Origin: Abditibacterium sp.
GTDB lineage: Bacteria > Armatimonadota > Abditibacteriia > Abditibacteriales > Abditibacteriaceae
Direction of reading: 5' to 3'
DNA: 39,459 nt
Assembly: GCA_043773205.1 (NCBI GenBank)
Contig: JAYVFL010000263.1
Coordinates: forward strand, 1-39,459
Position numbers and translations under genes: made by a program. Under the pieces are notes generated by a model. The model worked only from the letters and a program-made list of their open reading frames with translations. It made no database searches and was not told the DNA's origin. Shown one piece after another: positions 2,476 to 18,474 of the stretch. Position 1 is the first letter of the stretch. The number at the start of each line of letters is the position of its first letter.

Positions 2476-2489
2476 CATCAAGGCAAACA

Positions 2490-2522
2490 AAAACCGCGCT
2501 CCAAAAGTTGGAGCGCGGTTTT
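2490..2522. terminator. Bidirectional intrinsic terminator between convergent genes
   Basis: aaaaccgcgctccaa-aag-ttggagcgcggtttt: perfect stem with A and T tracts at the ends. Confidence 0.85.
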
Positions 2523-2538
2523 CTTGTAATTGGTTTTT

Positions 2539-5500
2539 TCAACTCACGTTAAAGACTTCGGGAACTTGCGGCAGACGGAATCCATAATCGGTGTCATCTG
2601 GCGTAGTGCTTAGATCGTTCTGTTGGAACCCGTTAAGCACAACGGTTGGATCGAAAATGTATTTGATTCGGTCGTTCGTGAGCTGGGTTGCCGCTGTAGA
2701 ATCGAAGGTTGTTGTGGCCCACTTGTTCATCCAGTCGGCAACTGCGCCCTTGGCTGTGACCGTAGTTCCTACTACTACATCGTTGACAAGCGCCGTCTGA
2801 TTCTCGGAAATGGCGCCGGTGAAATTAATTTGGTAATTGTAACGCGCGTAACGTGTCATCGCATACCTTTCGCTGTCCTCGATGGTGCCATTACGGTTCA
2901 AATCGGCGTATTCACCTACATCCCAAGTTCCATTGCCGGTGTCCAAATACTCACCTGCGTCTGGAACCGCAGGAAATACTGCCGGAGTTGTCAAATCCAT
3001 AAATGTTTGGGTGGCATCGCCGTGGAGACGAGACTCGAAAGTGGGACCAGGAATGACGAACCAACTGCCGTTTTGAGCATAAACGAAGGCGTTTACATCA
3101 AAAATATGTCCAGAATTAATTTTGGTTGTGGTGCTGTTTGAAGTCGTTAAGGCAACGTCTTCCAACTTCATGCCAAGCATTCGATAGTCGGGCAGAGCTG
3201 CTGCCGGCAAAACGTTAGCGGCCAGTGCGTTTTGACGAAGAGTGAACGAATTAAGACCGACATTCAAAGCCCCCACAGAGCGGCTATCTAAAGTGCTTCT
3301 CACCGGGGCTGTTCCGGTTGAAGTCTGATAAAAGCCTTGGTCGCCAGTCAGAATATCTTCGCGGTTAGCGCCTGACGTTGAATTAAGAAACGTTGGATCA
3401 AAACCAAACGCCCCTGTTTGGTCATAGGCTGTGCCATTCCAATTTTCGTTCGACATGATGGCAGGAGCTGTCGGGCCATTGACCCACATCGAAATCGAGG
3501 TGGCAACTGGCACGTCATAAGCGCCTGCTGCCACATCACTGTTAGCGATTTTGCCCTGCCAGCCAATTAAACCACCAGCTGCTACCAAAGGCGGTGTCGC
3601 TCCAAAATCATAGCGATTTCCAATTCCAGCGAGGTAGAAAAATGGAATTGAGCTATAAAGTGGAGTCGCAGTGGGAAGAAGAGTTACCTTGTATTTCCAC
3701 CCTACTGGCGCGTTAAGGTGAGTTCTCAGTTCCATCTCGTTCTTTAACTCTGTCAAGTCGAAATTTTGTGCAGAGGGTTCAGCAGTTATTGCGGTAGCGG
3801 GAAAAGAATCGGTCCCGGCGGGTGAGGGGCTGCTGAAATCTCCCCTGACTCTCTTATTCACTTCTGAAACGTTAGTTGCTGTAGTCACAAATGAAGTTTG
3901 AGGAGTATCAAGAACTCTTTTATTGGACAAAAATGTTCCTGATGCTGGCTTAGTTCCACCACCAAAATCCTCGGTTTCTACCTTCATCGCCGGAATTCTA
4001 TCGGCACCATGATTTAAGGCGATACGAACGTTCGCTAAATTGATTGGTGGAGTCATCGCCGGGATATTGAAGCGGCGTTGCATCGCATCGCCCGCATTCC
4101 TAATCACTTTGAAGGGTGTTGATGAAGTAGCTGCAGCATTCTGCTCGGCACGCGAACGCACAAAAGAGTTCGCCGCTATCTGGGTTGCTGGAGCCACTCT
4201 AACAAAGACCGTCATAGATGTAGCAGAAGAGTTGATGGAAGTAATTTGACCAATGCTTGAGATTGTGTCTACACCAGCCACCGAACTGGATGTTTCAACG
4301 AAATCATTAACGCGAAAATCACTGGTGCCTGTATTGGGCACAGTTATGTTGACTGAATTTCCCACAGTTACTGTTGGGGTGTTGGTAACGATTGTTTGTG
4401 CGTCTGGTCGGCCCAAAACGCGCGTTGGATTCATCACAACGTTCTTTTTGGCCAAAAGCAAAATTTTGCGAGGAAAACCAGTTGCTAAATTACCATCGGC
4501 ATTCGAATCGGCTGATAAAGAATCTTCGATATAAATGTTGCCCATCGAGACAACTGTGAGAGATCTGGGCGCATTTAAAACTTTACCTTTGATGCGCACA
4601 TTCCCTTCAGCGAATAAAACGCCGTTAACAGGCCAAAGCCGAGGTGATTTTCTGTATATACCTGCTTCAGTCGCTCCTGTGGCGGTATCAGCTTTCCAGG
4701 CTTTTTGGGAAAGTGGTCCTAAAGCATTTGTGAGTGCGCCTGTTCTATTATCGTCGCGAGGATCGCGAGTAATAGTGAGAATCGCTGTGCCATTAGATAA
4801 ATTAGAAAGCTCAATTTCAACACCACGCCCACGAAATTCATCGGGACCAACCCAGCCTCGCAAGTGTTGTTGCTCAAGTGAAGCCGTTGCTACATTGTTA
4901 GCATCAATTGTTGTTGCTACCCGTGAATAATTTTTAGCCGCTGACGTTGTTGGGCTTAACCACATTTCCACCAATTCACTTTGAGTCATCTCGCGTAGGC
5001 TTCCAAGCGTTGTATCAAAGACTTTTTCCTTGTCTTGCAAATTGTCAATGTAAATGCCTTGACCATATCCGTTCAGCGAACCAGAAAATCTATTTGCAGT
5101 AAGTGGTGTAGAAAAACGAGTTAAATTCCGGTAACGCTCAACACCATCACCAGAATCGATGGTAGGGGGCCGGAAATCCCGGACGTTGCGGGTGCTATTG
5201 TTGCTGGCGCGACCAGATAACCGGTTCCAGCCATCACTGACCAATTGATAATTGGGTGTTCCGGTCGTGAAAATGCCGTTTATTTCGCTGGAGCGCAGCA
5301 TTTGTGGAGTAGCGGTCGCATCAATCGCCACTTGACTCGTGGTGGCATCGAGAGCGATAACACCGGAAGTGAAAATATTGCCAGGGGCTTGATTACCTGC
5401 AAAAGCCGCCGCGTTGGAACGCAATTTTGTGGTCAATAAATCACCTGTAAGAACTAAGCTCGCATTGATTCTGGCTCCATCCACTTCGTTGATGCCTATT

Positions 5501-6576
5501 CCATCGGACAAACGAATTTTGCCCGAGGTTGACATGTTAAACGGAGTGACTGGCGTTGCGGGATTATTGTCGTAATCGATACCTTGTGGGGCACCAAAGT
5601 TGGCGGCAGCTTCAACCCGTTCTGGTCCCATCACTGGAGTGATTGGTTGAGCAAGTGTCAAAACGAAATTGGGCCGAGTCCCGACAACTGCAGTGACAAC
5701 TGCGCTGCGAGCCGCTACTCCAGCACGAGGGTTTGATACCGTGATGGAAAAAGGTGTTCCCAATTTTGTAAAGTCGCCCTGCGCGTTGATAACCGGCAGT
5801 GTGGGAGTCGCACCCGTTCCATCGCTTCCAGCCATTGGGTTGGCTTGACCTACCAGGCTTTGTCCCGTCAGAAAATCCCAATTCGAAACCGTGCGCGGCG
5901 TTTGGCCAACAGGCGCATTACGGGAGCCACCGAAATAGCTCACCGAACGCGTGTAGGCGGTGGGATCTTCGGTTGAAATCCCAATAACGGTGATTTCCAA
6001 CGATCCCGCGTATTCGACGCCCGCACTGAGCGGCGCCCGTCTCACTTGAGAGAGGAAAGTCGGAGCATCGCTGACTTGCGCACCTTGAGTGCGGGGATCG
6101 GGCGATTTAACAAGCTCTAATTTGCCAGACGCCGATGAGCGCGTTGCAACAAGGGCAAGGCGTTCGTCATCGGGATCAATTCTGGTTGGAAAAACTTCTC
6201 CATCGCCATCCAAATCTCCGGGATGCGGCGTGGTGCGCGCCCAACCCTGAGCGACTTCCATTGGTGTGTAGTAGAAAGCGTAATCGGCGTCTCCGGGCGC
6301 TGGCGGCACGTTTTCTAATTCGTTGCGCCATTTGTCTCCATCGTTGCTGTATGCCAGTTGCTCTTTGACATATTTCATTCCCGCTTCAGCTGCTACAATC
6401 GAGCGGTTTTTATCGACCTGACGCGCCGTTTGGTTGAGGTTCACCGACACAATCGCGATAAACGAAGCGCTCAAAAGCGCCGCGAAAATCATGATTAAAA
6501 CGGCCAGCAGCAAAGCCTGACCGCGTCGCGGCTGCCTGCAACCGGTTTGGCGATATTGTAAAGAGATTCGGCTCAT
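2539..6576 (-). CDS. Giant PilX/GspK-like minor pilin (~1345 aa), putative pilus-tip adhesin
   Basis: PRRG|QALLLAVLIMIFAALLS is a class III signal without Glu5, followed by the AAEAGM motif of PilX N-termini; several DxDxDG-like Ca-binding loops. Start placed at ATG 6576 because the longer ORF overlaps the upstream gene. Confidence 0.75.
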   Translation of the reverse strand: MSRISLQYRQTGCRQPRRGQALLLAVLIMIFAALLSASFIAIVSVNLNQTARQVDKNRSIVAAEAGMKYVKEQLAYSNDGDKWRNELENVPPAPGDADYAFYYTPMEVAQGWARTTPHPGDLDGDGEVFPTRIDPDDERLALVATRSSASGKLELVKSPDPRTQGAQVSDAPTFLSQVRRAPLSAGVEYAGSLEITVIGISTEDPTAYTRSVSYFGGSRNAPVGQTPRTVSNWDFLTGQSLVGQANPMAGSDGTGATPTLPVINAQGDFTKLGTPFSITVSNPRAGVAARSAVVTAVVGTRPNFVLTLAQPITPVMGPERVEAAANFGAPQGIDYDNNPATPVTPFNMSTSGKIRLSDGIGINEVDGARINASLVLTGDLLTTKLRSNAAAFAGNQAPGNIFTSGVIALDATTSQVAIDATATPQMLRSSEINGIFTTGTPNYQLVSDGWNRLSGRASNNSTRNVRDFRPPTIDSGDGVERYRNLTRFSTPLTANRFSGSLNGYGQGIYIDNLQDKEKVFDTTLGSLREMTQSELVEMWLSPTTSAAKNYSRVATTIDANNVATASLEQQHLRGWVGPDEFRGRGVEIELSNLSNGTAILTITRDPRDDNRTGALTNALGPLSQKAWKADTATGATEAGIYRKSPRLWPVNGVLFAEGNVRIKGKVLNAPRSLTVVSMGNIYIEDSLSADSNADGNLATGFPRKILLLAKKNVVMNPTRVLGRPDAQTIVTNTPTVTVGNSVNITVPNTGTSDFRVNDFVETSSSVAGVDTISSIGQITSINSSATSMTVFVRVAPATQIAANSFVRSRAEQNAAATSSTPFKVIRNAGDAMQRRFNIPAMTPPINLANVRIALNHGADRIPAMKVETEDFGGGTKPASGTFLSNKRVLDTPQTSFVTTATNVSEVNKRVRGDFSSPSPAGTDSFPATAITAEPSAQNFDLTELKNEMELRTHLNAPVGWKYKVTLLPTATPLYSSIPFFYLAGIGNRYDFGATPPLVAAGGLIGWQGKIANSDVAAGAYDVPVATSISMWVNGPTAPAIMSNENWNGTAYDQTGAFGFDPTFLNSTSGANREDILTGDQGFYQTSTGTAPVRSTLDSRSVGALNVGLNSFTLRQNALAANVLPAAALPDYRMLGMKLEDVALTTSNSTTTKINSGHIFDVNAFVYAQNGSWFVIPGPTFESRLHGDATQTFMDLTTPAVFPAVPDAGEYLDTGNGTWDVGEYADLNRNGTIEDSERYAMTRYARYNYQINFTGAISENQTALVNDVVVGTTVTAKGAVADWMNKWATTTFDSTAATQLTNDRIKYIFDPTVVLNGFQQNDLSTTPDDTDYGFRLPQVPEVFNVS

Positions 6577-6616
6577 GGAAAAACCTGAAATGAACTGTTG
6601 GAAAGCGAAATTCCGC

Positions 6617-7771
6617 TTAATTTGGGCAACCCGCATTCGGCAGATCGAAAGTTTGAGAAACGGGCACACGCTGCGCCTTACCTTGCCCATTGACGGCTGC
6701 CGCGCCAATCTGGTCGTATTGAGCCAGAGTCATGTTAACGGTAATGCGGTCGATGCGTTTGCCATCGGATGTACTTTCGACAAACGAAAGCTCAGGAATG
6801 TAAGAACCGGCACCGCCAGCCGGAGCGGACGGAGCGACCAGTTGCATTCCGCGCGGCGTAATCAAAGTGTGCGAACCGATAACATCCTCTGCGACTTGGT
6901 TGCCCGTTGTTGAAGGAGTTTCAGATGCGTCAATACACAAGGGCTGTAAATTTGCCTCGCCGAAGAAATTGTGGGTGATCCACAGAAAATTACGGTTGAT
7001 AATGGCATCATTACTTCCACTTACAAGAGCGGCAGGGAGCTTAGTCCAATCTGTTTCTACATTTATTGATGTTGGTGGACTTGGTGAACTTGGTGAATCT
7101 TTGGCAGGCTGATCTTTAAATGAGGTGTTGGGAACCATTCCCTCTAAACGACGATATGGATATTGGGCGCGAAACAGGACAATGGGATTGTCGATGACAT
7201 CGTAACGTTTAGAAATATCCAAACGACGTGGATAATAAGTAACCACGTAATCTTCGCCCACTTGTGATGCTCTTCCATTATTGCGACCTAAAAGAAGCAT
7301 GTCAATCCGACTCGGATTGCTGATAGCCTTGACCGAATTGCTTGTAATTCCAATGCCTGAGAGAGCTGGATCAGAGGTTGCGCCAGGGGCTACGTCAGAC
7401 CTAATATACGGAAGGCGCTTCCAATCTGTATTTCCATTAGTTCCGTTAGAGGGGTAAGGTGCCAACGCGCAATCAGATGCTAAATTCGCAGTGTTATCGC
7501 TAATTCCAGAGATGCGAGAATTAGGAAACACGAAGTTGGCGCGCTTGAAATCTTTGCTGATTTGCTGCATTGTGAGCTGCATTTCTTGTTGCAACCCAGA
7601 GCGCGCGGTTCCAATGTGGTAGGTCTCGAAGCCCAACCTCAAAGGAACCAAGATGATCGCTAAAAGCAGCGACATAATAGATACCGCTACCAAAATCTCA
7701 ACTAAAGTGAATCCGCTGCGCCGTTGCACTTTGCGGCGCAACTTGGGGTGAAATTGAATTGAATGTTTCAT
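6617..7771 (-). CDS. PilW/GspJ-like minor pilin with N-terminal methylation motif
   Basis: RRSG|FTLVEILVAVSIMSLLL followed by an amphipathic helix (MQQISKDFKRA); ATGA overlap with the upstream gene. Confidence 0.8.
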   Translation of the reverse strand: MKHSIQFHPKLRRKVQRRSGFTLVEILVAVSIMSLLLAIILVPLRLGFETYHIGTARSGLQQEMQLTMQQISKDFKRANFVFPNSRISGISDNTANLASDCALAPYPSNGTNGNTDWKRLPYIRSDVAPGATSDPALSGIGITSNSVKAISNPSRIDMLLLGRNNGRASQVGEDYVVTYYPRRLDISKRYDVIDNPIVLFRAQYPYRRLEGMVPNTSFKDQPAKDSPSSPSPPTSINVETDWTKLPAALVSGSNDAIINRNFLWITHNFFGEANLQPLCIDASETPSTTGNQVAEDVIGSHTLITPRGMQLVAPSAPAGGAGSYIPELSFVESTSDGKRIDRITVNMTLAQYDQIGAAAVNGQGKAQRVPVSQTFDLPNAGCPN

Positions 7772-8796
7772 GGCGATGGAACGCAGTCAGTTATCAAAAT
7801 AGTAGAAGGTGTAGATGTAACCAGCATGTCCTCAGCCTTTTCTCGCGGCACACGCTGCCAACCTGAACAAGTGCCCGTGTTAGACCCAGACGCATTCTGC
7901 ACATTTTGAACTACGGGAAGGCTCTGAACGCTGCCATCGGAAAACAACACGTTGTCGAAATTACGGCTTGTCGTGCGAGTGAGACCGTCTTTGTCCAGAG
8001 GACGATGGAAGCGGCACCAAGTTAAAACGGTCATGTCCTTAATGGAGCGATCAACAATTCGCGTTGCATTGCTTGAAGTGTCGATTTTGTAAGGAGTGAT
8101 TTGACGATATTTTATTGTGGCTTCCGGCCTTCTAAAACTCGAATAAGTCGGTTCAGCCGCTGGTGAATCGTCTGTCACTTGATAAGACAAATAAGACGGA
8201 TTCAAGTAATTGTAATTACCGTCTTTGATTAGCAGAGTGGGGCTGTCCACAGTTGCCGTTTTGCAATCGAAAGTAGGTGAAGTGGTGTCTGTTAAATCCC
8301 GGTATTGAACGTCGCGGCTAAAGTTGTCGGCGGGACAGTGAAAAATCTTGGCACTGCGAACGTAGCCTGAAAGCCCGACGAAACCATTGGCGACCTGAGA
8401 GGAATCTTCCAATTGCGCAGGCAAATCAACACTGGACAAAGAGCAATTTGTGCTGGCAGTGGCGCTCAACGAATCGGGTCTTTGAAATCCAGGTTTGCCA
8501 AATGTATATAACGACCATAGGCCAATGCCGCCTTTTAAGGTCTCATTAATATTTGAGTAACCCCCCATGTTGGGATCGCCATTTTCGTTTATATAGGGCA
8601 GACGACCGTCGTAATCCTGCGAATAGAGCCTCACCGATTTATAAATCTGGGATAGATTGCTCTGGCAGGATGTGCGCTTATTCCCATCGGAAATAGAGCG
8701 AAATGCACCGAAAGAAATCGAGCTAATAATGGCGATAACAGCCAAAACTACCAGAAGCTCAACCAGTGTAAAGCCACTTTTGTGTTGTTTGCGCAT
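7768..8796 (-). CDS. Prepilin-type protein, DUF1559/H-X9-DG-like
   Basis: KSG|FTLVELLVVLAVIAII, CQSNLSQI, YSQDYDGRLP, IFHCPAD and C-terminal NVLFSDGSV. Confidence 0.85.
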   Translation of the reverse strand: MRKQHKSGFTLVELLVVLAVIAIISSISFGAFRSISDGNKRTSCQSNLSQIYKSVRLYSQDYDGRLPYINENGDPNMGGYSNINETLKGGIGLWSLYTFGKPGFQRPDSLSATASTNCSLSSVDLPAQLEDSSQVANGFVGLSGYVRSAKIFHCPADNFSRDVQYRDLTDTTSPTFDCKTATVDSPTLLIKDGNYNYLNPSYLSYQVTDDSPAAEPTYSSFRRPEATIKYRQITPYKIDTSSNATRIVDRSIKDMTVLTWCRFHRPLDKDGLTRTTSRNFDNVLFSDGSVQSLPVVQNVQNASGSNTGTCSGWQRVPREKAEDMLVTSTPSTILITDCVPSP

Positions 8797-10826
8797 TATT
8801 TGCTATCTCCTCGAAACCCAATCGTGGATACCTGGGCGAAATTAGAGCCATCGAGCCATGCTGTCCGCGCTTGGATGCTAATACCTTTAACGGAACGGAT
8901 CGCGTTAATCATAAGTGCACTGCTACCAGATAATTGCGGCTCTGCATAAGCTAACCAACTGTCGCCATTGGCGTCAGTAATAGCCAAATCTTGTGTTGCA
9001 CCGGCAGGAGCATCCGCGGCCCGGATCCAACGAGTGTTGATTGTAATTACATCGTTTGTGACTTCTTTCTTAAGGAATGCATCCGTATAAACGTAAGACA
9101 ATGAAATTGTTTTACCCGCTTCAGATGGTGGAAAGAAAATTCTGCCCGGTTGGGAGCCTGAAGCTGCGTTCCACACATAATAACGCCAAGGCTCAGCCAC
9201 ACTGACGTTACCGACATCGCCTACAAATTGGAGAGAGGTGTTCCTGTTATTCAATCCAACACCGTAATAGGGTGTGTAGTTAGAGGGAGCAACCGAGAGC
9301 TGATGCGTCCAACTGTCTAAGTTTTGATAAACAACGCGGGACTGGAAAACCTGATAATCCTCAGTGTTGTCAAATCGGTCGTTGGTATCAAATAAAATAC
9401 GACCGCCTTTACGATTGATGCCCCACAGAAAAAATGGATTGTTCGCCGATAAGTTGGCTATCGCTTCGGTTGGCGCAGTGATTGGCGGCGTAGCAAGAGT
9501 GTCACTAACATTTAATGCGTTGGCTTGCAGCGTCGGATATTTAGTCATTGTCGCTGGGTTTGTCGCGAGATAAGACATCAGCGCAAATGTAGCAGGAGAC
9601 GGGGTTGTTCCATCTCCACCATCCGATAGCGCCCTGAGTGGCAAAACAACTTCACGCGGTGTGCGTTGGAGCGGAGTTGGAGGAACTGTGACTGGCCCTG
9701 GTGTGGGTGTGACTTCTGGAATAATCGAAGGCACGCTATTGCTTACAATTTGACGCCAGTCGTTAATTTGATAATCAACGCTCACTTCATCACCTTCAAC
9801 AAGTGGACTAACGCCATTTGAAACATTGGTTAAAACCAGAACCCCAAGATTATTGAGAGTATTTTGAACTTCTATGTCACTGCTCACATTGGGATTGTTG
9901 ACAGGATTAATCAGCTGCCGGCGAAATTTCAACTGAATAGGGCCATCTATCACACGGGATTGGTTAAGCGCTCCGGTGGCAGGCGAATCGGGGAAACGAC
10001 GCCCTTGTAAAAGGCGCGCTTGGCTTATAGTGATGTTTGGATTGGTGCCATTTGGGGTGGATGAACGTAAAACTTCATCATTCGTGGCATTCACAATACC
10101 ATTTGTTAGTCCACCTGAGATAGCATCCAAATATTTGTAGCTGGCGTAGTAAAAATCTTCAGGATTCGCTGAGGTCAGTTGTGCAGAAGCAAGGGAAGGC
10201 TCTGCTTCTGTGAAATTGAGAAAGCCACTTTTCCTCGTTGGCGTTGCGCCACTGTTATCGAGCCTTGTTTCAGCAACAACTCCGCTGACAGGAATCTCTT
10301 TATAAACCTGAGCCAAAGGAGGCCGGGTTTGATTGGGCGCGCTTCCCACCAAAGGCCCAGCAATTGGGAAAGACGTTAAAACGTAGTCAATCGGCGTTGG
10401 AACGCCGCCCACTAAAACGAAAACTCTGCGAACGATTTGCTTTTCGCCACTGATATATTTGAACCGGCCCAGCGCAGACAAATTGTCCACGGCCTGCAAG
10501 TTACGCTTGGGGAGCGAATTGTTGCGAATCGCCGAGCCTATAACTGCCGTGGGGCCTGAACCGGGAATATCTGCAGTGATGTATGTATCGTGGACTGAAG
10601 AGGGAACTGCGCTCGACTCTTTGGCGAAACGCGCCAAGGCGGTGCGATTCAAACTGAGCGCTGTGGCTTTGTCACCCGAATTCTGGATGAGGCCCAACGC
10701 AGGAGGAAAGATGCGAATAATCGCTATTGCGCCGAAGAGAAAAATCGCCAGAGCAATAACAACCTCTACCAAGGTGAAACCGCCGCGACGGGTTGCGTCG
10801 CGGCGGGAAAAAAGAGCTTCGTTCAT
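8796..10826 (-). CDS. Large PilV/GspI-like minor pilin (676 aa)
   Basis: RRGG|FTLVEVVIALAIFLFGAIAIIRIFP; Pro/Thr-rich internal linker; TAATG coupling to the next gene. Confidence 0.8.
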   Translation of the reverse strand: MNEALFSRRDATRRGGFTLVEVVIALAIFLFGAIAIIRIFPPALGLIQNSGDKATALSLNRTALARFAKESSAVPSSVHDTYITADIPGSGPTAVIGSAIRNNSLPKRNLQAVDNLSALGRFKYISGEKQIVRRVFVLVGGVPTPIDYVLTSFPIAGPLVGSAPNQTRPPLAQVYKEIPVSGVVAETRLDNSGATPTRKSGFLNFTEAEPSLASAQLTSANPEDFYYASYKYLDAISGGLTNGIVNATNDEVLRSSTPNGTNPNITISQARLLQGRRFPDSPATGALNQSRVIDGPIQLKFRRQLINPVNNPNVSSDIEVQNTLNNLGVLVLTNVSNGVSPLVEGDEVSVDYQINDWRQIVSNSVPSIIPEVTPTPGPVTVPPTPLQRTPREVVLPLRALSDGGDGTTPSPATFALMSYLATNPATMTKYPTLQANALNVSDTLATPPITAPTEAIANLSANNPFFLWGINRKGGRILFDTNDRFDNTEDYQVFQSRVVYQNLDSWTHQLSVAPSNYTPYYGVGLNNRNTSLQFVGDVGNVSVAEPWRYYVWNAASGSQPGRIFFPPSEAGKTISLSYVYTDAFLKKEVTNDVITINTRWIRAADAPAGATQDLAITDANGDSWLAYAEPQLSGSSALMINAIRSVKGISIQARTAWLDGSNFAQVSTIGFRGDSK

Positions 10827-10850
10827 TTCTGAAGTCCAAGTGGAGCGATA

Positions 10851-11708
10851 TTAATTGGTCTGTGTCTGCCAGAAGTTGGTGGGTGGCGTCGCAGTTTTCC
10901 ACTGCGTGACGTCTACGGCTTTCGCACTTCCATCAAGGCGCAAAACGATGTCTCTGGTATTTGCGCTGTCGATGGGAGTCGGGCCATAAAGTTCGCCTGG
11001 AGTGGTTACGTTTTTACCAGTCTGAAAACGGTGATGAATACAGTGAGTAATAATGGTTGCCGGGGGCGCAAACCGGTTCGACATCGAAAATTTAATGAGA
11101 TTTTCGGTCGCATTGGCATTGAACCCTGTCGCAAGCTGCTGATTGTAGGGAAGTGCCGGGTTGACTAACAAAACTCTGGCGGGCACCGGGGTTGTCGCAG
11201 TGGCTGCCTCGGTGGGATTGGCGTAAGTGAAGCCATCTTCGCGCGTGCCCCAGTAATTCCAAACGAACTGGCTTAAATCGCCCGTGAAATTGGTTGAATT
11301 GATTTGTCCGGTTGGGAGCGGCGTTGGCTGTGCGGTTTTTGACAAAAAACCATAAGAAGAACGCGGCACATCAGAGAGAGTGTCGTCGTTTTGGCAAGTC
11401 AAAGAGTCTTGACCCGCTTTGAAGTAGCCTGGCGCGTTATTTCCTAAAGTCGCGGGCGTCGTTGTGCCGTCGTTGTATTTGGCACCCTCGGCCAGAATAT
11501 CCAGCAAAGTGGCGGGATAGCGGCCTTCGTCCTGCTTGTAAAGCTGAACCGCAGCATATATTTGCTGCAAATTGCTTTGACAATTGGTCTGGCGGGCACT
11601 TTCTTTCGCGCGATTAAACGCGGGGAAAAGAATCGCCGCCAAAATCGCAATGATGGCCAGCACGACCAGAATTTCTACCAGAGTAAAGGCACTTCGACGC
11701 TTGTTCAT
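10851..11708 (-). CDS. Prepilin-type protein, DUF1559-like
   Basis: MNKRRSA|FTLVEILVVLAIIAILAAILFPAFNRAKESARQTNCQSNLQQI is a classic DUF1559-type N-terminus; AGAGGA SD before ATG 11708; C-terminal VLRLDGSAK. Confidence 0.88.
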   Translation of the reverse strand: MNKRRSAFTLVEILVVLAIIAILAAILFPAFNRAKESARQTNCQSNLQQIYAAVQLYKQDEGRYPATLLDILAEGAKYNDGTTTPATLGNNAPGYFKAGQDSLTCQNDDTLSDVPRSSYGFLSKTAQPTPLPTGQINSTNFTGDLSQFVWNYWGTREDGFTYANPTEAATATTPVPARVLLVNPALPYNQQLATGFNANATENLIKFSMSNRFAPPATIITHCIHHRFQTGKNVTTPGELYGPTPIDSANTRDIVLRLDGSAKAVDVTQWKTATPPTNFWQTQTN

Positions 11709-11772
11709 AAATCCTCTTATTTGAAGGCAAAGCCACACCGGGTTATCAACTGATTAATAACCAATACAGGGA

Positions 11773-11801
11773 ATTATACCTTGTTTTAGCCCTTTTTTCA
11801 A
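11773..11801 (-). promoter_or_regulatory. Sigma70-type promoter for the minor-pilin operon
   Basis: Minus strand TTGAAA (11801-11796), 17-bp spacer, TATAAT (11778-11773), about 65 nt upstream of ATG 11708. Confidence 0.7.
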
Positions 11802-11813
11802 AACGGCGCGCGT

Positions 11814-12767
11814 TCAGCGCGCACCGAACATTGAGGGTTCGGGTATCAAAAGCCGCATATAAGCGGCGTTAATTTCTGTGCCATAAAGCAGCGCTGCAAC
11901 GGCTCCGATAGCGAGCATCGGGCCAAATGGCATCACTTTTCGAAAAGCACGTCGCGCCAGCAAACCGGCAATCGACTTTTTCCCATAACGCTGCTCACGA
12001 CTTTTTGCCCATTTATAAGAGCGAATTGCACGCGGAATTTGTGCACTTACTCCGATGAAAGCTCCCAGGGTGGCAGCGAGAAAGAAGAATGTCAATAATG
12101 TTGCGTTCCAACCTAAATTTGCTGCAATGGCCGCAACCAAAAGAACATCGCCAAAGCCAAGGGCCTCTTTTTTGTAGAGGCGCGAAAAACCCTCCCGCAC
12201 CAACCAAAGTCCTGTTGCACAAATTGTCATCGCTAAAATCGAAGCCGGAAGGGGAGCGGGAAGCATAGCGGCAAAAAGCGCGCCATTTTCCAACCGTGCG
12301 CCTTGAGATGCACGCCACGCATCGAAAGCCACGCCTGCCACGCCCATTAACAGCACCGATTCCAGCTGAATCAAACGCGTGTCGTAGTCCACAAAAAACA
12401 CCACGACGAGCGTAGAAACAAAAACCAGATCTCTGACTAAACGGGCATAATCTCCCGTCCAGGCCGCGAAAAAGCTCCCATCCGCCAGGTTTCCCGACTG
12501 CAATGCGACTAAAAGAAACAAAATGGCCGTTAGCAGCTCGATACCGAAATAACGCCACGAGAATTTTGCTCCGCAATACCGGCATTTTCCGCCCAAATAG
12601 AGTTGCGAAACTAACGGCACCAGGTCCATGCCGCGCAACCGCGTGTTGCAAGTGGGGCAGTGCGATGGCGGATGCGCGATGCTTTCGTGCCTTGGCATTC
12701 GCCAGATACAAACATTCAAAAACGAACCGATATTGGCGCCCAAAACGAACAGAATCAGCGGAAACAT
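11814..12767 (-). CDS. pilD: Prepilin peptidase / N-methyltransferase (A24A)
   Basis: GSFLNVCIWRMP, SHCPTC and GKCRYC Zn motifs, DYDT and GFGDV catalytic aspartates, C-terminal PFGPML. Confidence 0.95.
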   Translation of the reverse strand: MFPLILFVLGANIGSFLNVCIWRMPRHESIAHPPSHCPTCNTRLRGMDLVPLVSQLYLGGKCRYCGAKFSWRYFGIELLTAILFLLVALQSGNLADGSFFAAWTGDYARLVRDLVFVSTLVVVFFVDYDTRLIQLESVLLMGVAGVAFDAWRASQGARLENGALFAAMLPAPLPASILAMTICATGLWLVREGFSRLYKKEALGFGDVLLVAAIAANLGWNATLLTFFFLAATLGAFIGVSAQIPRAIRSYKWAKSREQRYGKKSIAGLLARRAFRKVMPFGPMLAIGAVAALLYGTEINAAYMRLLIPEPSMFGAR

Positions 12768-12782
12768 AGAAAATATGTGCCA

Positions 12783-12816
12783 AGAAAGGGCAGAAGCAAC
12801 CGCTTCTGCCCTTTCT
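12783..12816 (-). terminator. 15-bp perfect hairpin between pilC and pilD (terminator or mRNA-stabilising stem)
   Basis: agaaagggcagaagc-aacc-gcttctgccctttct; only a weak U-tract on the minus strand. Confidence 0.6.
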
Positions 12817-12828
12817 CACACCGGCTTT

Positions 12829-14061
12829 TTACTTGTCGTCGCCACCCGACAAACCGTTGATAAGCGCAATCATCGGCATGAACATCGCGATAACGATGAA
12901 GCCGACCATCAAACCCAAGCCAACGATCATTAAAGGCTCAATCGTCGCCGCGAGCTGTTCTAACTGCGTTTCGACTTCCACAGCGTAAAAGTCGGCGACT
13001 TTGCCGAGCATTTGGTCCAAAGCGCCAGTTTCTTCGCCGATGGCAATCATTTGCACAACCATAGCGGGAAAGAGTTTCGATTTTTCCAGCGGGTCGCCAA
13101 TCGGGTCGCCTTCGCGAATTCGCGCGCGGGCGTTCATGATGACATCGGTGAAAGTCTCGTTGTCAATGGCCGCCGAAACCGTTTCTAACGCCTGCAGAAT
13201 CGGCACGCCCGAAGTGAGTAGGGTAGAAAGCGTGCGGCAAAAACGCTCGACCGCGATGTTATGCGACAATTTGCCGAAAACCGGCACTTTCATTTTGTAT
13301 TTGTCGTAAACCCGTTTGCCCCACGTCGTTTTCTTCCATTTTTTAAATCCGCCTGTGGTGAGGACGATAAATATAATGGTCGGGACTATGCTTTTCGGAT
13401 TGGTCATGAAGTTCGAGGCCGAAATCAGCGCCAGCGTGATGGCGGGCATCTCGATTTTGAAATCTTTGAAAATTTCCATGAACTTCGGCACGATGAACGT
13501 CACCAAGAACGTCACGATGACAATCGCGACCACGCCGACCAAAACCGGATACGTCATCGCGGCTTTAATCTTTTGGCGCATCCGAATGTCGGACTCCATA
13601 AATTGAGCCAAACGATCCAGGGTCTCGTCCAAGACGCCGCCGACTTCGCCCGCGCGCACCAAACCAAGACACAAGTTAGAAAACGCAACCGGATGGTGAG
13701 ACATCGCGCGCGACAAGGTTTCGCCCGCTTCGACGCGGTTTTGCACGTCGCGAATGATGTCTTTCAGTTTGGTGTTCGTCGTCTGCTTTTCCAAAACCGA
13801 CAAGCAGCGCACGAGTGAAACGCCTGCGTTGATCATCGTGGCGAACTGACGGCAAAAAATGGAGATTTGCTGCATCTTCACTTTCTGCATCGCTTTGAGC
13901 GGGTTGAATTTCTTCTTTTTGGCGACTTCCGCCGCGACGGATTGAATCCAGAAACCCTGATCTTGCAAACGCTTTTGCAACATCTTTTCATTGGGCGCTT
14001 CGATGCGGCCCCGATGAATTTTTCCGGCCTGATCTTTGGCCACATATGCGAAAACCGGCAT
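12829..14061 (-). CDS. pilC: Type IV pilus inner-membrane platform protein (GspF family)
   Basis: MPVFAY start with GGGAG SD; FCRQFATMINAG, AGEVGGVLD, AMTYP, IGEETGALDQML and IEP motifs. Confidence 0.95.
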   Translation of the reverse strand: MPVFAYVAKDQAGKIHRGRIEAPNEKMLQKRLQDQGFWIQSVAAEVAKKKKFNPLKAMQKVKMQQISIFCRQFATMINAGVSLVRCLSVLEKQTTNTKLKDIIRDVQNRVEAGETLSRAMSHHPVAFSNLCLGLVRAGEVGGVLDETLDRLAQFMESDIRMRQKIKAAMTYPVLVGVVAIVIVTFLVTFIVPKFMEIFKDFKIEMPAITLALISASNFMTNPKSIVPTIIFIVLTTGGFKKWKKTTWGKRVYDKYKMKVPVFGKLSHNIAVERFCRTLSTLLTSGVPILQALETVSAAIDNETFTDVIMNARARIREGDPIGDPLEKSKLFPAMVVQMIAIGEETGALDQMLGKVADFYAVEVETQLEQLAATIEPLMIVGLGLMVGFIVIAMFMPMIALINGLSGGDDK

Positions 14062-14161
14062 AGTTTTTCTCCCTGAAACCAACTGAATTTAAAGCGCGAA
14101 TCGAGAAAAACGCGCGGCAATCGCTATTTGTCGCCGATAAAAAAGGCGACGAGCGTAAAAT

Positions 14162-15442
14162 TTAACCGTTCATGCCACCCTGAATCATCACTTCGAGTTC
14201 AGCGGGGTTATGAGCGCGGCTCATGGCATCTTCATACGTCACCAAACCGTTCAAGACCAAGTCGCGAAGCGCTTGATCCATGGTTTGCATGCCGATGCCG
14301 TTCTGGGTTTGAATAATCGACGTCATTTGATGCGCTTTGGCCTCACGAATCAGATTTCGGATCGCCGAATTCGCGATCATGATTTCGATTGCGCCAATAC
14401 GTCCGCCCCCGATTTTAGGCAAAAGCTGCTGCGTCACAATCGCAACTAACGAGTTGGAAAGCTGCGTGCGCACCTGTTCCTGCTGGTCGGCTGGAAAAAC
14501 GCCTACCATGCGGTCGATGGATTCCGCCGCTGAGTTGGTGTGCAAAGTGCCAAAAACCAAGTGACCGGTTTCGGCTGCGGTGACAGCCAGGTGAATGGTT
14601 TCGGTGTCGCGCATTTCGCCGACCAAGATTACATCCGGGTCTTCGCGAAGCGAGGCGCGCAAAGCGTTTTTGAACGAGTGAGTGTCGGTTCCCACTTCGC
14701 GCTGGTTCACGATACATTTGCGATGTGGATGCACAAACTCAATCGGATCTTCGATGGTGATGATGTGACCTTCGTGTTCCGAATTGATTTTGTTGATAAT
14801 CGCGGCTAAAGTCGTCGATTTTCCGCTTCCCGTTGGCCCGGTGACAAGCATCAAGCCGCGCGGACGGTTCGCCTGCTCCATGATGACGGGCGGCAGGCCT
14901 AAATCGTCGGGATTGGGGATTTTGGTGGGAATAACGCGCATTGCCGCAGCGAGCGCGCCTTTATCTCGGTAAGCGTTGACGCGAAAACGGGCGCCCGCAT
15001 CGGCTGTTGTGTAAGCGAAATCGAGTTCGAGATCGTTTTCAAAACGCTGGATTTGCTCATCCGACAAAATATCGTAAATGATGCGCTGCAAAACCGAGGC
15101 GCGAACCACTTCGTATTGCTCGATTTCTTTGACGTTGCCGTGAATGCGAATACAGGGCGCTTTTCCAACTGCCAGATGTAAATCGGAGCCTTTGGTGTCG
15201 AGAACATGCTGCAAAAGTTCGTCGATGTGGATTTCATCGAGCGACACTTTTTCAACCGGGGCTTCCACCGGAGTTTCCGATGCGATCCCATTTCCGGCGT
15301 AGCCGCTCTCGCCCGGTGCCTGAGCAGGTCGGGCACCCAAAGGGCGAGGCGTGAGACCATTGCCATTGGTTAAACCTTGCGGGCGCGGTGGAAGTGTGCC
15401 GGGAGCAACCGGACGGCCAACTGTGGCTGGATTTTGTGCCAT
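14162..15442 (-). CDS. pilT: Type IV pilus retraction ATPase
   Basis: GSDLHL, Walker A GPTGSGKST, IEDPIE, LREDPDVILVGEMRD, His-box TLHT and the PilT signature AIRNLIRE; GAGG SD before ATG 15442. Confidence 0.95.
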   Translation of the reverse strand: MAQNPATVGRPVAPGTLPPRPQGLTNGNGLTPRPLGARPAQAPGESGYAGNGIASETPVEAPVEKVSLDEIHIDELLQHVLDTKGSDLHLAVGKAPCIRIHGNVKEIEQYEVVRASVLQRIIYDILSDEQIQRFENDLELDFAYTTADAGARFRVNAYRDKGALAAAMRVIPTKIPNPDDLGLPPVIMEQANRPRGLMLVTGPTGSGKSTTLAAIINKINSEHEGHIITIEDPIEFVHPHRKCIVNQREVGTDTHSFKNALRASLREDPDVILVGEMRDTETIHLAVTAAETGHLVFGTLHTNSAAESIDRMVGVFPADQQEQVRTQLSNSLVAIVTQQLLPKIGGGRIGAIEIMIANSAIRNLIREAKAHQMTSIIQTQNGIGMQTMDQALRDLVLNGLVTYEDAMSRAHNPAELEVMIQGGMNG

Positions 15443-15553
15443 GAAAGATAAAACCTCGAAAAGAATGAAAAACGGAGTCCCCAAAAGAATTCCGTGAAGA
15501 TGACTCGCAAACTCGCGGCCCACACAAAGCGTAGGACGCATTCACCAACCTGA

Positions 15554-15595
15554 ACGTCTGTCGTTCCACGTCTGTTGTTCTACGTCTGTTGTTCT
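15554..15595. repeat. 14-bp tandem repeat x3 (acgtctgtYgttcY) upstream of pilT
   Basis: acgtctgtcgttcc acgtctgttgttct acgtctgttgttct read directly. Confidence 0.85.
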
Positions 15596-15604
15596 ACACG
15601 TCGC

Positions 15605-16129
15605 TTAAATGACGTTAGAAAAACGCATTTCGACGCGTTCACCCCACACAGTGGGATGCGTTGTGACGTGCAACTCGTAAAATTGCTCGTCCACTTGAAG
15701 CCGGATTCGTCCACCTAAAAGAGCATTTTCCTGTTGCAGCTCGATTTGAGCCAGCATTTTGAGACGCGCAACAATTGGTTTAAGTGCCAAAGTCGGCAAT
15801 TTAATATGCTCACGCACATCGCCAGCCACTGTGTAGCGCACGCGCACGTTGCGAGTCTGCGGTTCGATGGAAATAACCGAAGCGCCGTCGCGCACGGCGC
15901 AAAGCAAAATCGTGTTAACGATGCGCTCGACCGGTTCTTGGCCCCGCCAATTATCGGCGCCCGCAGGCGCTTCATTGAGTTCGGGATAAGCCAATTTGAG
16001 CGGCGCAGGCTGCTTCTCTTCTTCGCCGCCCGACTCGAAATCGCGCAGAGTCGCACGTTTTAGCCCTAAAAACGACCAGTATTCGGGTTTCACACGCGCC
16101 TCCTTCACTTGGGATGCGAACTTTCCCAC
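15605..16129 (-). CDS. Stand-alone PilB/GspE N2-domain paralogue without an ATPase domain
   Basis: Its C-terminal ~105 aa align without gaps to the N2 domain of the adjacent PilB (RIVNT.LL.A..DGAS.I.IEPQ...PTVWGE...MR); no Walker motifs; GTG start is uncertain. Confidence 0.75.
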   Translation of the reverse strand: MGKFASQVKEARVKPEYWSFLGLKRATLRDFESGGEEEKQPAPLKLAYPELNEAPAGADNWRGQEPVERIVNTILLCAVRDGASVISIEPQTRNVRVRYTVAGDVREHIKLPTLALKPIVARLKMLAQIELQQENALLGGRIRLQVDEQFYELHVTTHPTVWGERVEMRFSNVI

Positions 16130-16156
16130 ACCGCCGTTTCGCCTCGACAGCGGAAA

Positions 16157-18061
16157 TTAATGGCCGCCGGTGAAAACGACACGCATCACTTCTTCGACTG
16201 TTGTGTGGCCATCTTTGCACTTTTGGAAGCCGTCTTCCTGTAAAGTGCGCATGCCATTGGCGCGCGCGGCTTCGCGAAGTTCCGTGACCGGGCTGCGTCG
16301 CACGATAAGCTCCTGCATTTCTTCGTTGACGCGCATCAGTTCGTAAATTCCGGTGCGGCCTTTGTATCCCGTCTGTTTGCAGACGTCACAACCGCGTCCG
16401 TGCCAGAATTTTTGCGACGGATTCTTAAGCGGATCGAAGCCAAAACGCATCAAAGTTTCGCGCGGCGGCGTGTATTCTTCTTTGCAGCTCTTGCAAATCG
16501 TGCGCGCGAGGCGCTGCGCCAGTGCGCCTGTAAGCGAGGCCGAAATCAAGAACGGCTCGACGCCCATGTCGCCCAAACGTGTCGCGGTCGATGGCGCATC
16601 GTTGGTGTGAATCGTAGAAAGAACAAAGTGACCGGTGAGCGAGGCTTGGACCGCGATTTCCGCTGTTTCCAAATCTCGAATCTCTCCAACCATGATGACG
16701 TCCGGGTCTTGGCGCAAAAAGGCGCGCAGCGCCGTCGCGAAAGTCAGGCCGGCTTTGCGATTGACCTGAACCTGCGTCAAACCGGGCAACTGGTATTCCA
16801 CCGGGTCTTCCACGGTTGAAACGTTCTTTTCAATGGTGGAAACCACGTTCAAAAGCGAATAAAGTGTGGTGGTTTTGCCTGAACCTGTCGGGCCGCAAAC
16901 ATAAAGCATGCCGTTCGGCTGGTTGGCGATGTCGAGCAATTCTTCCTGATGGTCGGGATACAAGCCGATTTTGTCCAAACCGAGCATAACCGAAGATTTG
17001 TCCAGGACGCGCATGACGATTTTCTCGCCCCACACCGTTGGACAGGTGTTGACGCGCATGTCGTATTCCTTGCCCTGCATGGTGAGTTTGATACGTCCGT
17101 CCTGGGGCACACGGCGCTCGGCGATGTTCATTTCCGACATGATTTTGATACGCGAAATCAGCGGATTCAAAACATACTGCGGGATTTTCATCTGCTCGTG
17201 CAAAACGCCGTCGATGCGGTAGCGAATGCGCACGCCGCGTTGCTGCGGCTCGATGTGAATGTCACTGGCTCCGTCTTTCAGGGCGTAAAGCAGCACCGTG
17301 TTCACGATGCGGATAATTGGCGCTTCTTCGGCTAATGTTCCGTTGGACGAGACTGAATCGGGGTTGAGGTTGGTTCCAGCTTTGGCCGCGTCCTCTTCGG
17401 ACACGACCTCGACTTTTTTGACCTTCTTTTTCTTGGCATTTTCGTCTTCGACGACTTCCACCGGCGCGACTTCGCCCAAAATGGCAGCCATGTCGTCGTC
17501 GTATTTGTCCCAGGCTTCGGGTGCAAGCGGGTCGCTGTCGGCTGGTTTTTCGGCGGCGCCATTTTCGCCGGAGTGCCCATTTGAACCGTTGCCGTTGGAG
17601 AGACTGGAGAGTTTGCCGTTTTTAAAGGCTTCAACTTGCGACGGCGCCGCCAAAACGCCGCGAATTTCCATTTTGGTGCGGGTTTTGAGGTCTTCTATCG
17701 CGTAGAAATTTTTGGGGTCGTCCATCGCCACAACGAGCGTGTTGCCCTCGATGGCGACGGGCGTGACTTTCAAACGCGCTTGCAGGTCGTCGGGAACGAG
17801 GCCTTTGGCTTCGTCCGAAGTCGTCATTTTGAGCAAATTGACGAACGAAACGCCGATGACTTCGGCACGCGCTTCGGTAATATCGACGTCCGAAAGCCCC
17901 ATTTCCAACAGAATTGCTTCCATCGGCGTGCCGGGCGCGTTTTGCATGCGCCGTTTGAACTCGTTGCCTTGTTCTTGACTGAGCTTGCCCTTATCAAAAA
18001 GAACGTGAGCAACTGTTTTACGATTCGCGCCCGCGACGGGCTGAGGAGTGGAAAGCGCCAT
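16157..18061 (-). CDS. pilB: Type IV pilus assembly ATPase (GspE/PulE family)
   Basis: GASDIHIEP, ERRVPQDGR, Walker A GPTGSGKTT, VEDPVE, LRQDPDVIMVGEIRD, HTND, CKSC...CDVC Zn motif and GYKGR; GAGG SD before ATG 18061. Confidence 0.95.
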   Translation of the reverse strand: MALSTPQPVAGANRKTVAHVLFDKGKLSQEQGNEFKRRMQNAPGTPMEAILLEMGLSDVDITEARAEVIGVSFVNLLKMTTSDEAKGLVPDDLQARLKVTPVAIEGNTLVVAMDDPKNFYAIEDLKTRTKMEIRGVLAAPSQVEAFKNGKLSSLSNGNGSNGHSGENGAAEKPADSDPLAPEAWDKYDDDMAAILGEVAPVEVVEDENAKKKKVKKVEVVSEEDAAKAGTNLNPDSVSSNGTLAEEAPIIRIVNTVLLYALKDGASDIHIEPQQRGVRIRYRIDGVLHEQMKIPQYVLNPLISRIKIMSEMNIAERRVPQDGRIKLTMQGKEYDMRVNTCPTVWGEKIVMRVLDKSSVMLGLDKIGLYPDHQEELLDIANQPNGMLYVCGPTGSGKTTTLYSLLNVVSTIEKNVSTVEDPVEYQLPGLTQVQVNRKAGLTFATALRAFLRQDPDVIMVGEIRDLETAEIAVQASLTGHFVLSTIHTNDAPSTATRLGDMGVEPFLISASLTGALAQRLARTICKSCKEEYTPPRETLMRFGFDPLKNPSQKFWHGRGCDVCKQTGYKGRTGIYELMRVNEEMQELIVRRSPVTELREAARANGMRTLQEDGFQKCKDGHTTVEEVMRVVFTGGH

Positions 18062-18474
18062 AAAAACCTCTAACGGAAATGGATTCGAGACAACACCGGC
18101 AAACAACGTTATGTCCAAAAGCTGCAAACCCAATTGCAAAAAATGCAAAACAGGTTGGAAACAACACAAAAGCTATACAAGGCACCCAAAAGAGCGCCTC
18201 CAGTTCGAACAGCGATAATTTTACCCGAAAATCATCGAGAGTTGGAAGCAGTTATAAGCTGGCGCACATAGTTTGTGGGCCAATGAGAGCCAGGTCAGAG
18301 GAGAATCGGAGGAGAAAACGCAAGACGCGATGTCAAAGTCAAGCGTTCCCGCGCCCTTCACGCCCGATTTCGCTGATGCGCCTGATTTTGCCGATGCGCG
18401 CAACCTGAACCAATTTCCAGTTGTCCGTTTTTCTGCTTCTCTTCCCGTTTCTGTTAATTGTTCCTGCTCCCAAA

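What the first reader, a model, noticed from the sequence alone, without database searches (positions are those of the whole stretch)
2539..11801. Self-contained operon of five oversized prepilins forming an unusual pilus-tip complex
Seen: the order DUF1559-like (285 aa), PilV-like (676), DUF1559-like (342), PilW-like (384), PilX-like (~1345), partly translationally coupled (TAATG, ATGA), with its own promoter and terminator. Known: canonical T4aP minor pilins are mostly 150-300 aa and pair with a separate PilY1 adhesin, and DUF1559/H-X9-DG proteins are abundant in PVC and Armatimonadota genomes with unknown function. No pilY1, small major pilin or pilMNOPQ is in this window. Inference: adhesin functions are fused onto the pilins, and DUF1559 proteins are true subunits of a retractile PilB/PilT/PilC pilus, which would give the family a functional context.
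Basis: partly seen in the sequence, partly recalled or inferred. Interest (0 to 1): 0.7.

Follow-up and report, generated by a model that had tools for sequence, protein, structure and literature searches.

The report
Armatimonadota's oversized pilus-tip pilin set
Five adjacent genes encode unusually large pilus subunits that likely build the tip of this bacterium's type IV pilus, capped by a 1,345-residue protein predicted to carry a beta-solenoid and a sugar-binding-like module; the set is standard across its phylum and follows a design known from Thermus and cyanobacteria.

Summary
Observation confirmed: five prepilin genes directly follow pilB-pilT-pilC-pilD in an Abditibacterium-type genome. 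They are not an isolated operon but the core minor-pilin (H-I-J-K) set of Armatimonadota. The PilV-like family occurs in 147 of 151 phylum genomes, and 51 of 65 related loci keep the order V..W-X. The 1,345-aa protein lacks Glu5. Its model (pLDDT 85) best matches ice-binding beta-solenoids and Thermus ComZ, with a CBM35-like domain added. The PilY1 family was found in 0 of 151 genomes. This PilY1-free solenoid cap is published for Thermus and cyanobacteria, and this scan has reported similar giant caps in other phyla. What differs here is that all of I, J and K are enlarged, and a divergent DUF1559-like subfamily fills the fourth slot. These two genes fail the H-X9-DG test, so they give the wider family context only indirectly. 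The phylum's small PilA (59 of 151 genomes) was not found in 27 Abditibacteriaceae genomes. There, dozens of dispersed DUF1559 pilins, often directly behind LacI regulators (also seen earlier in this scan), are the shaft candidates. Complex formation could not be modelled; nothing is shown experimentally.

The parts
11773..11801 (-). sigma-70-like promoter in the pilD-D1 gap (TTGAAA-17-TATAAT)
   Evidence: 11 of 12 match; exact TATAAT at the same junction in 11 of 25 relatives
10851..11708 (-). D1: 285-aa prepilin of a locus-linked, DUF1559-like subfamily; likely the fourth core minor pilin (FimT/GspH slot); major-pilin role not excluded
   Evidence: N_methyl and partial PF07596; first gene in 44 of 51 complete loci; tree; alpha-1 helix resembles major pilins
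8796..10826 (-). [quoted passage not shown]
   Evidence: model pLDDT 70.5, pTM 0.78; top VIA hits EpsI Z 5.3, XcpV Z 5.0, GspI Z 4.5 over residues 30-660; family in 147 of 151 phylum genomes
7768..8796 (-). D2: 342-aa paralogue of D1, present only in some lineages, between V and W
   Evidence: hhalign with D1 probability 100 over 221 columns; own clade; absent from 20 D-V-W-X loci
6617..7771 (-). W: 384-aa pilin, likely GspJ/PilW class (assigned by position and weak N-terminal hits; not folded)
   Evidence: N_methyl; sub-threshold hits to PRK10557, HpsC, ComGF and GspJ; directly before X in 51 of 51 complete loci
2539..6576 (-). X: 1345-aa GspK/PilX/ComZ-class cap pilin without Glu5; predicted pilin sheet, beta-solenoid (about aa 218-1318, interrupted), small beta-barrel (aa 722-811), CBM35-like jelly roll (aa 810-1141) and a terminal strand returning to the pilin sheet
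   Evidence: model of aa 146-1345, pLDDT 85, pTM 0.90; VIA: 3wp9 Z 10.1, ComZ 6qvi Z 8.8 with 271 aligned, CBM35 Z 8.3-8.7; homologues in 37 of 41 genomes
2489..2523 (-). 16-bp intrinsic-terminator-like hairpin, usable on both strands, between X and the convergent 630-aa gene
11814..18169 (-). context: pilD (11814-12767), pilC (12829-14082), pilT (14162-15541), 174-aa PilB-N-like gene (15605-16129), pilB (16157-18169)
   Evidence: same order in relatives

Best explanation
The five genes likely encode the core tip (priming) complex of the Armatimonadota type IVa pilus, with the giant X protein predicted to cap the fibre in place of PilY1. Shown: prepilin signals, gene order, phylum-wide conservation, no Glu5 in X, adjacency to pilB-pilT-pilC-pilD. 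Predicted from models: V is a GspI-type pilin with inserted domains; X is a pilin whose sheet is interrupted by a ComZ-like beta-solenoid and closed by its own C-terminal strand. Inferred from known systems: PilD cleaves all five; X sits at the apex and supplies in cis the licensing strand that PilY1 supplies elsewhere; V and W form the I-J pair; D1 (and D2 where present) link the tip to the shaft; PilB extends and PilT retracts the fibre. The solenoid and the CBM35-like graft, which distant relatives mostly lack, likely bind surface or substrate polysaccharide. In this family the shaft subunit is likely DUF1559-type, because no small pilin was found.
For: Order and motifs. Glu5 is invariant in the V, W, D1 and D2 alignments and absent in X orthologues. 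51 of 65 genome loci hold V..W-X in order, 37 of them with pilD upstream; the other 14 held only X or W-X. The V family is in 147 of 151 genomes, mostly as a single match. There is one X, one V, one W and one PilD in this genome. The X model's top hits are three ice-binding solenoids and ComZ, whose alignment runs from the N-terminal sheet to the last strand; the same solenoid kinship is reported for ComZ (PMC6561018, passages). The V model's two hits with Z of 5 or more among 48,161 chains are both GspI homologues. PF05567 was found in 0 of 151 genomes, with a positive control that rang. Atlas feature neighbours of an X orthologue include PilX_N (31% of members) and DUF4900 (20%) clusters at 0.90 (a lead only). 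D genes stay in the locus in five genomes that also have a separate small PilA (G031, G032, G036, G038, G039).
Against: The Z scores are modest: the tool notes that a best Z of 7-8 is common without true kinship, the ComZ rmsd is 4.6 A, and V's best Z is 5.3. Foldseek found nothing meaningful, and there is no sequence-level hit to PDB or Pfam for X. The first 145 residues of X, and all of W, D1 and D2, were not folded. D1's first helix matches major pilins best, so the H-slot assignment is not secure. In several lineages the two D genes are recent duplicates. The PilY1 control scored only 36 bits, so divergent PilY1 could be missed. The genome is 79% complete and has a second PilB-like and a second PilC-like gene. 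A CBM-like fold shows no ligand.
Confidence: 0.78

Rival explanations
1. D1 is the major (shaft) pilin, transcribed first from the internal promoter, and only V, W, X (with D2) form the tip.
For: D1 follows pilD and the promoter directly. Its alpha-1 profile best matches Geobacter PilA, Thermus PilA, Myxococcus PilA and PulG and aligns with the phylum's small PilA up to a Y-x-K...C-P motif. No small pilin was found in this genome or in 27 family genomes.
Against: No terminator-like site was listed in the 24-nt D1-V gap. D1's codon usage is in the 11th percentile against six highly expressed reference genes (a weak proxy). D genes persist in the locus in genomes with a dedicated small PilA. The dispersed paralogues share the same kind of helix.
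Confidence: 0.25
2. The locus builds a short periplasmic pseudopilus (T2SS-like or uptake piston) rather than an external adhesive pilus, and the large heads handle secreted enzymes or imported glycans.
For: The cap closes its sheet in cis as GspK does (PMC13533445, parts 1-2 read). The X head of about 1,300 residues may be too bulky for a secretin (inference). The genome has four non-Tad secretins and many LacI- and CAZyme-linked prepilins.
Against: pilT lies inside the locus and passes the PilT family cut-off; pilB scores higher against PilB than GspE; pilM is present. ComZ and cyanobacterial PilX also lack PilY1 yet prime T4aP filaments (PMC6561018, PMC13759059). Fimbriimonas is reported to have fimbriae (PMC4072686, passages).
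Confidence: 0.15
3. The tip is mainly a competence (DNA uptake) tip like ComZ, and the extra domains are spacers.
For: ComZ is the closest solved pilin to X and binds DNA (PMC6561018).
Against: X's size and grafted domains resemble the enlarged, adhesion-linked PilX-EPS/HpsA class more than the compact Com class (PMC13759059, sections 7, 8, 12). The CBM35/CBM6-like graft points to glycans. I did not test DNA-binding residues or competence genes.
Confidence: 0.15

Closest known systems
ComZ (with PilA2) of Thermus thermophilus, PDB 6qvi; PMC6561018 (passages read)
   Same: GspK-like pilin without Glu5, with an ice-binding-protein-like beta-solenoid inserted before the last strand; last large gene of a five-gene pilin locus; proposed tip cap. 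VIA Z 8.8, 271 residues aligned across the whole model.
   Different: X is about 2.5 times longer than the 518-residue ComZ chain and carries a beta-barrel and a CBM35-like domain; 11% identity and no sequence-level hit. Its partner pilins are also giant, and DNA binding is untested.
Cyanobacterial core minor-pilin sets FimT-PilW-PilV-PilX, especially PilX-EPS/HpsA; PMC13759059 (sections 7, 8, 12 read)
   Same: Four-class priming set, PilX solenoid proposed to replace PilY1, lineage-specific domains grafted on the solenoid, some genomes with a second set (here G002, G010, G012).
   Different: Here V (491-726 aa mature) and W (237-727 aa) are also strongly enlarged, the fourth slot holds a DUF1559-like protein, the set follows pilB-T-C-D, and Abditibacteriaceae lack a detectable small major pilin. 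HpsA homology was not detected (no NCBIfam hit for X besides weak GspK).
T2SS GspH-I-J-K and T4aP FimU-PilV-PilW-PilX plus PilY1; PMC13533445 (parts 1-2 of 8 read)
   Same: Gene order I-J-K, K without Glu5, V folds like GspI/EpsI/XcpV, terminal strand likely supplied in cis as in GspK.
   Different: Subunits are two to several times larger, no PilY1 family match in 151 genomes, and a PilT motor is in the locus.
DUF1559 / SBP_bac_10 (PF07596) with H-X9-DG (TIGR04294) prepilin-like proteins
   Same: D1 and D2 share the N-terminal helix, the C-x-S-N-L-x-Q motif and a C-terminal H...DG motif.
   Different: They have C-x-x-H followed by a longer spacer, fail TIGR04294, and group apart from 33 dispersed paralogues of this genome. 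Papers found treat the family as of unknown function or as solute-binding proteins (PMC10632474, PMC4807772, PMC2754498; passages).
Modular pilins (Streptococcus sanguinis PilB, PilC); PMC8179133 (passages read)
   Same: Functional modules grafted on pilins for display at the tip.
   Different: There the module follows the pilin domain; here domains are inserted inside the pilin sheet of V and X.

Membership tests
Type IV filament core tip complex (H/I/J/K) | Class III signal peptides with Glu5 on the H, I and J subunits | tested here: met
   N_methyl over cut-off for D1, V, D2, W; Glu5 invariant
Type IV filament core tip complex (H/I/J/K) | K subunit lacks Glu5 and follows I and J in the operon | tested here: met
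   G|QALLL in X and orthologues; V..W-X order in 51 of 65 loci, 14 incomplete
Type IV filament core tip complex (H/I/J/K) | I subunit has the GspI fold | tested here: met
   Top VIA hits EpsI Z 5.3 (80 aligned, rmsd 3.6) and XcpV Z 5.0; low Z because the core is small
Type IV filament core tip complex (H/I/J/K) | J subunit has the GspJ/PilW fold; H subunit has the GspH/FimT fold | not tested
Type IV filament core tip complex (H/I/J/K) | Subunits are PilD-processed, bind each other and are needed to start the fibre | not testable with these tools
ComZ / cyanobacterial PilX beta-solenoid cap pilins | Ice-binding-type beta-solenoid inserted between the penultimate and last strand of a GspK-like pilin | tested here: met
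   VIA: 3wp9 Z 10.1, 5uyt Z 9.9, 7bwx Z 9.2; ComZ aligned over model 41-1198 against chain 35-514; model lacks aa 1-145
ComZ / cyanobacterial PilX beta-solenoid cap pilins | Sequence-level homology to ComZ or HpsA | tested here: inconclusive
   No PDB sequence hit with a 40-row profile; no Pfam hit for 17 X orthologues; Atlas leads to PilX_N and DUF4900
ComZ / cyanobacterial PilX beta-solenoid cap pilins | DNA or polysaccharide binding | not testable with these tools
   Fold likeness only
DUF1559 / H-X9-DG proteins | PF07596 match over the cut-off | tested here: inconclusive
   D1 24.1 bits (cut-off 23.3) over 35 residues only; D2 no hit
DUF1559 / H-X9-DG proteins | C-terminal H-X9-DG domain (TIGR04294) | tested here: not met
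   No hit for D1 or D2, while two dispersed paralogues tested scored 26.1 and 29.5 against a cut-off of 19
Type IVa pilus system | PilB, PilT, PilC, PilD, PilM and a secretin | tested here: met
   pilN and pilO assigned by position next to pilM only; PilB scored 625.6 against a cut-off of 675.65
Type IVa pilus system | Small major pilin | tested here: inconclusive
   Not found in this 79%-complete genome. The phylum's small-PilA head profile gave one weak hit, in a 235-aa frame, among 27 family genomes but hit 59 of 151 phylum genomes
Type IVa pilus system | PilY1/PilC adhesin (PF05567) | tested here: not met
   0 of 151 genomes; control record rang at 36.4 bits; divergent forms could be missed
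Verru_Chthon cassette (TIGR02596, TIGR02599 and companions) | Matches to the cassette models over their cut-offs | tested here: not met
   Only N-terminal helix hits of 19-22 bits against cut-offs of 70 and 256.5; none for X

The most novel reading that the evidence does not exclude
In Abditibacteriaceae the whole pilus is built from DUF1559-class pilins. One conserved giant tip (this operon) primes a retractile fibre whose shaft subunits are drawn from dozens of interchangeable H-X9-DG paralogues, many placed directly behind sugar-type LacI regulators and beside glycan-degrading enzymes. The cell would swap substrate-specific pilins onto one machine to catch and pull in particular polysaccharides.
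Probability: 0.3. Interest if true: 0.8.

Novelty: new variant of a known kind. Interest (0 to 1): 0.45.

Why it matters
It defines the apparently undescribed core pilus locus of a whole, poorly studied phylum, in which the tip subunits are all unusually large and PilY1 is not detected. It extends the ComZ-type solenoid cap to a further phylum. It also narrows an open question: in Abditibacterium the only assembly route seen for about 40 to 140 DUF1559 prepilins per genome is this one PilD and tip set, and no small pilin was found, so shearing pili from the cultured species and running proteomics on different sugars would directly test what DUF1559 proteins do.

Tried and rejected
No RNA holder was listed, so expression was not examined. 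Foldseek against PDB gave no usable match for X or V; a second VIA look recovered only the barrel and CBM-like domains. A profile search of PDB sequences gave nothing for X and only the signal helix for W. Pfam found no domain in 17 X orthologues. The Atlas did not hold D1 or X, so an orthologue of X was used. Codon usage did not single out any prepilin as highly expressed: the best was at the 89th percentile, the five locus genes at the 2nd to 11th; this is inconclusive. Recent horizontal acquisition was considered because the operon's GC is low (0.47-0.51 against 0.555) and rejected: the locus is phylum-wide, the D1 and D2 trees group by genus and family, and GC3 follows the host in distant relatives. 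Verru_Chthon membership was rejected. The IQ-TREE run did not finish, so a FastTree tree was used; it has long-branch warnings, and its dispersed paralogues come from this genome only. Ten literature searches listed no paper describing this locus or a LacI-DUF1559 link. The library lacks most subscription papers, I read listings or passages only, and no supplements were opened, so supplements of the modular-pilin and T4F surveys may list these proteins.
Full report
Observation. The five ORFs, their sizes, the two overlapping junctions, the promoter-like site and the terminator are all in the sequence. Four carry a class III signal with Glu5. The fifth (X) has G|QALLLAV and no Glu5. Directly upstream on the same strand lie pilD, pilC, pilT, a 174-aa PilB-N-like gene and pilB. 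Named close homologues of X come from Abditibacterium, and more distant ones from other Armatimonadota, so I take the window to be from an Abditibacterium-type genome. That genome is 79% complete and in 572 contigs.

Distribution. X homologues were found in 37 of 41 genomes, and the V family in 147 of 151 genomes drawn across the phylum. Of 65 loci fetched around X from the genome collection, 51 hold V..W-X in order. The patterns were D-V-D-W-X 23 (one of them fragmented), D-V-W-X 20, D-D-V-W-X 1, V-D-W-X 3 and V-W-X 4; 37 have pilD upstream within the flank. The other 14 showed only X or W-X. The usual minimal set is therefore D-V-W-X, which is the H-I-J-K order, and D2 is an optional extra copy. 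Mature sizes in these loci, leaving out four fragmented ones, are X 831-1365 aa (n=53), W 237-727 (n=46), V 491-726 (n=39) and D 229-320 (n=62). Oversize is thus a trait of the phylum. Three genomes have a second D-V-D-W-X cassette with no motor genes in the stretch fetched, and five have tandem X copies.

The rest of the machine. This genome has pilM with two adjacent pilN/pilO-like genes on contig C54 and six secretins, two of them beside Tad-type cpaB genes. It has one PilD, one X, one V and one W, plus a second PilB-like gene, a second PilC-like gene and two more PilT-like genes. The PilY1 family PF05567 was found in 0 of 151 phylum genomes. The same search rang, though weakly at 36 bits, on a control record.

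Structure of X. A model of residues 146-1345 from 40 sequences was confident (pLDDT 85, pTM 0.90). Against 48,161 solved chains the best matches were ice-binding beta-solenoids (3wp9 Z 10.1, rmsd 3.6, 198 aligned; 5uyt Z 9.9; 7bwx Z 9.2). Thermus ComZ matched at Z 8.8 (rmsd 4.6, 271 aligned), with an alignment running from the N-terminal sheet to residue 1343. A small barrel (aa 722-811, phage-tail and ATPase-type hits up to Z 9.3) and a jelly roll like CBM35, CBM6 and CBM36 (aa 810-1141, Z up to 8.7) are grafted into the solenoid. Seven more distant orthologues fill only 33-38% of those columns, against 74-91% for most of the core blocks. These Z values are modest, and Foldseek and sequence searches found nothing. 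ComZ is described as a GspK-like pilin with an ice-binding-type solenoid inserted before its last strand, placed at the tip (PMC6561018, passages). Cyanobacterial PilX has the same build and is proposed to replace PilY1 (PMC13759059, sections 7, 8, 12). GspK supplies in cis the terminal strand that PilY1 supplies in trans (PMC13533445, parts 1-2).

Structure of V. The model (pLDDT 70.5) has a 53-residue N-terminal helix and a sheet completed by C-terminal strands. Its only two hits with Z of 5 or more are the GspI homologues EpsI and XcpV, aligned over residues 30-660; an immunoglobulin-like sandwich at 344-489 scores lower. W was not folded; its J assignment rests on position and sub-threshold hits.

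The DUF1559 question. D1 and D2 are paralogues. They keep the family's helix and a modified C-terminal motif but fail TIGR04294, which two dispersed paralogues pass. In a FastTree tree of 95 rows, 33 dispersed paralogues of this genome separate from all locus-linked proteins with SH support 98; one orphan gene on C12 falls with D1. The genome has 43 N_methyl matches; five relatives have 26 to 143. A small PilA of about 105-115 aa exists in the phylum: its head profile hit 59 of 151 genomes but only one of 27 Abditibacteriaceae genomes, weakly and in a 235-aa frame. A sensitive search of this genome showed no complete small pilin. Five genomes with a small PilA still keep D in the locus, which favours D1 as a core minor pilin. 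Against this, D1's helix best matches major pilins.

Dispersed paralogues. Among 91 neighbouring proteins of these genes I found LacI-type regulators, GH5, GH9, GH16, GH26, GH28, GH42, GH43, GH97, pectinesterase and uronate enzymes, along with many unrelated housekeeping genes. A prepilin motif starts within 800 bp downstream on the same strand for 7 of 14, 16 of 25 and 7 of 18 LacI-type genes in three Abditibacterium genomes, against under 1% expected by chance (the genomes are kin and not independent). A pulG-like gene with 67 paralogues, and a pseudopilin induced on alginate, are reported in a verrucomicrobium (PMC13274419, passages). I found this link before looking at earlier notes of this scan, which report it on other genomes; giant ComZ-like caps were also reported there for other phyla.

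Verdict. The operon is real and most likely encodes the phylum's standard type IVa pilus tip, a new variant of the known PilY1-free solenoid-cap design (confidence 0.78). The distinctive points are the enlargement of all three of I, J and K, the DUF1559-like subunit in the fourth slot, and the lack of a small pilin in this family. Binding between the subunits, processing, location and ligand are inferred only; the complex predictor was not available. The bolder reading, a pilus made of swappable sugar-regulated DUF1559 subunits on one shared tip, is not excluded (about 0.3).

Noticed in passing
G000 C69, C128, C159, C368, C418, C455, C508; also G009 and G008: LacI-type regulator genes lie directly upstream of dispersed DUF1559 prepilin genes in 30 of 57 cases across three genomes, often beside glycan-degrading enzymes.
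   Followed up: partly
window 15605-16129 (-): A 174-aa gene matching only the N-terminal part of the PilB/GspE ATPase sits between pilB and pilT. It was found at this place in genus-level relatives but not in other genera examined; it may be a motor regulator.
   Followed up: partly
G000:C12:5596-6432 (-): An orphan D1-clade paralogue away from the pilus locus, convergent with a CHASE2 adenylate/guanylate cyclase gene.
   Followed up: partly
L257:7229-7600 and L259-L278: A small PilA family (about 105-115 aa mature) in 59 of 151 phylum genomes shares the helix and a C-P motif with D1; several of these loci also carry a small PilV-like pilin of 117-140 aa, hinting at a second, conventional pilin set in those lineages.
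   Followed up: partly
L041, L043, L075; L039, L045, L047, L050, L072: Second motor-less D-V-D-W-X cassettes in three genomes and tandem duplicate X genes in five, suggesting alternative tips.
   Followed up: no
window 7305-7277 (-): A second 11-of-12 promoter-like site inside W, about 700 bp upstream of X; it may be chance.
   Followed up: no
G000:C372 (L252:5777-11278): Three secretin genes in tandem, one of them divergent; which secretin serves this pilus is unknown.
   Followed up: no
window 18421-21714 (+) and 583-2475 (+): Two proteins without Pfam hits flank the locus: a 1097-aa gene divergent from pilB with three paralogues in the genome, and a 630-aa gene convergent on X. Both recur at these places in some relatives.
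   Followed up: no
G000:C54:2049-4634 (-): PilM is 843 aa, with a long acidic low-complexity insertion splitting the PilM domain.
   Followed up: no
G000:C207:7169-8275 and C174:3576-4754: Two prepilin-like proteins with Gln instead of Glu at position 5.
   Followed up: no
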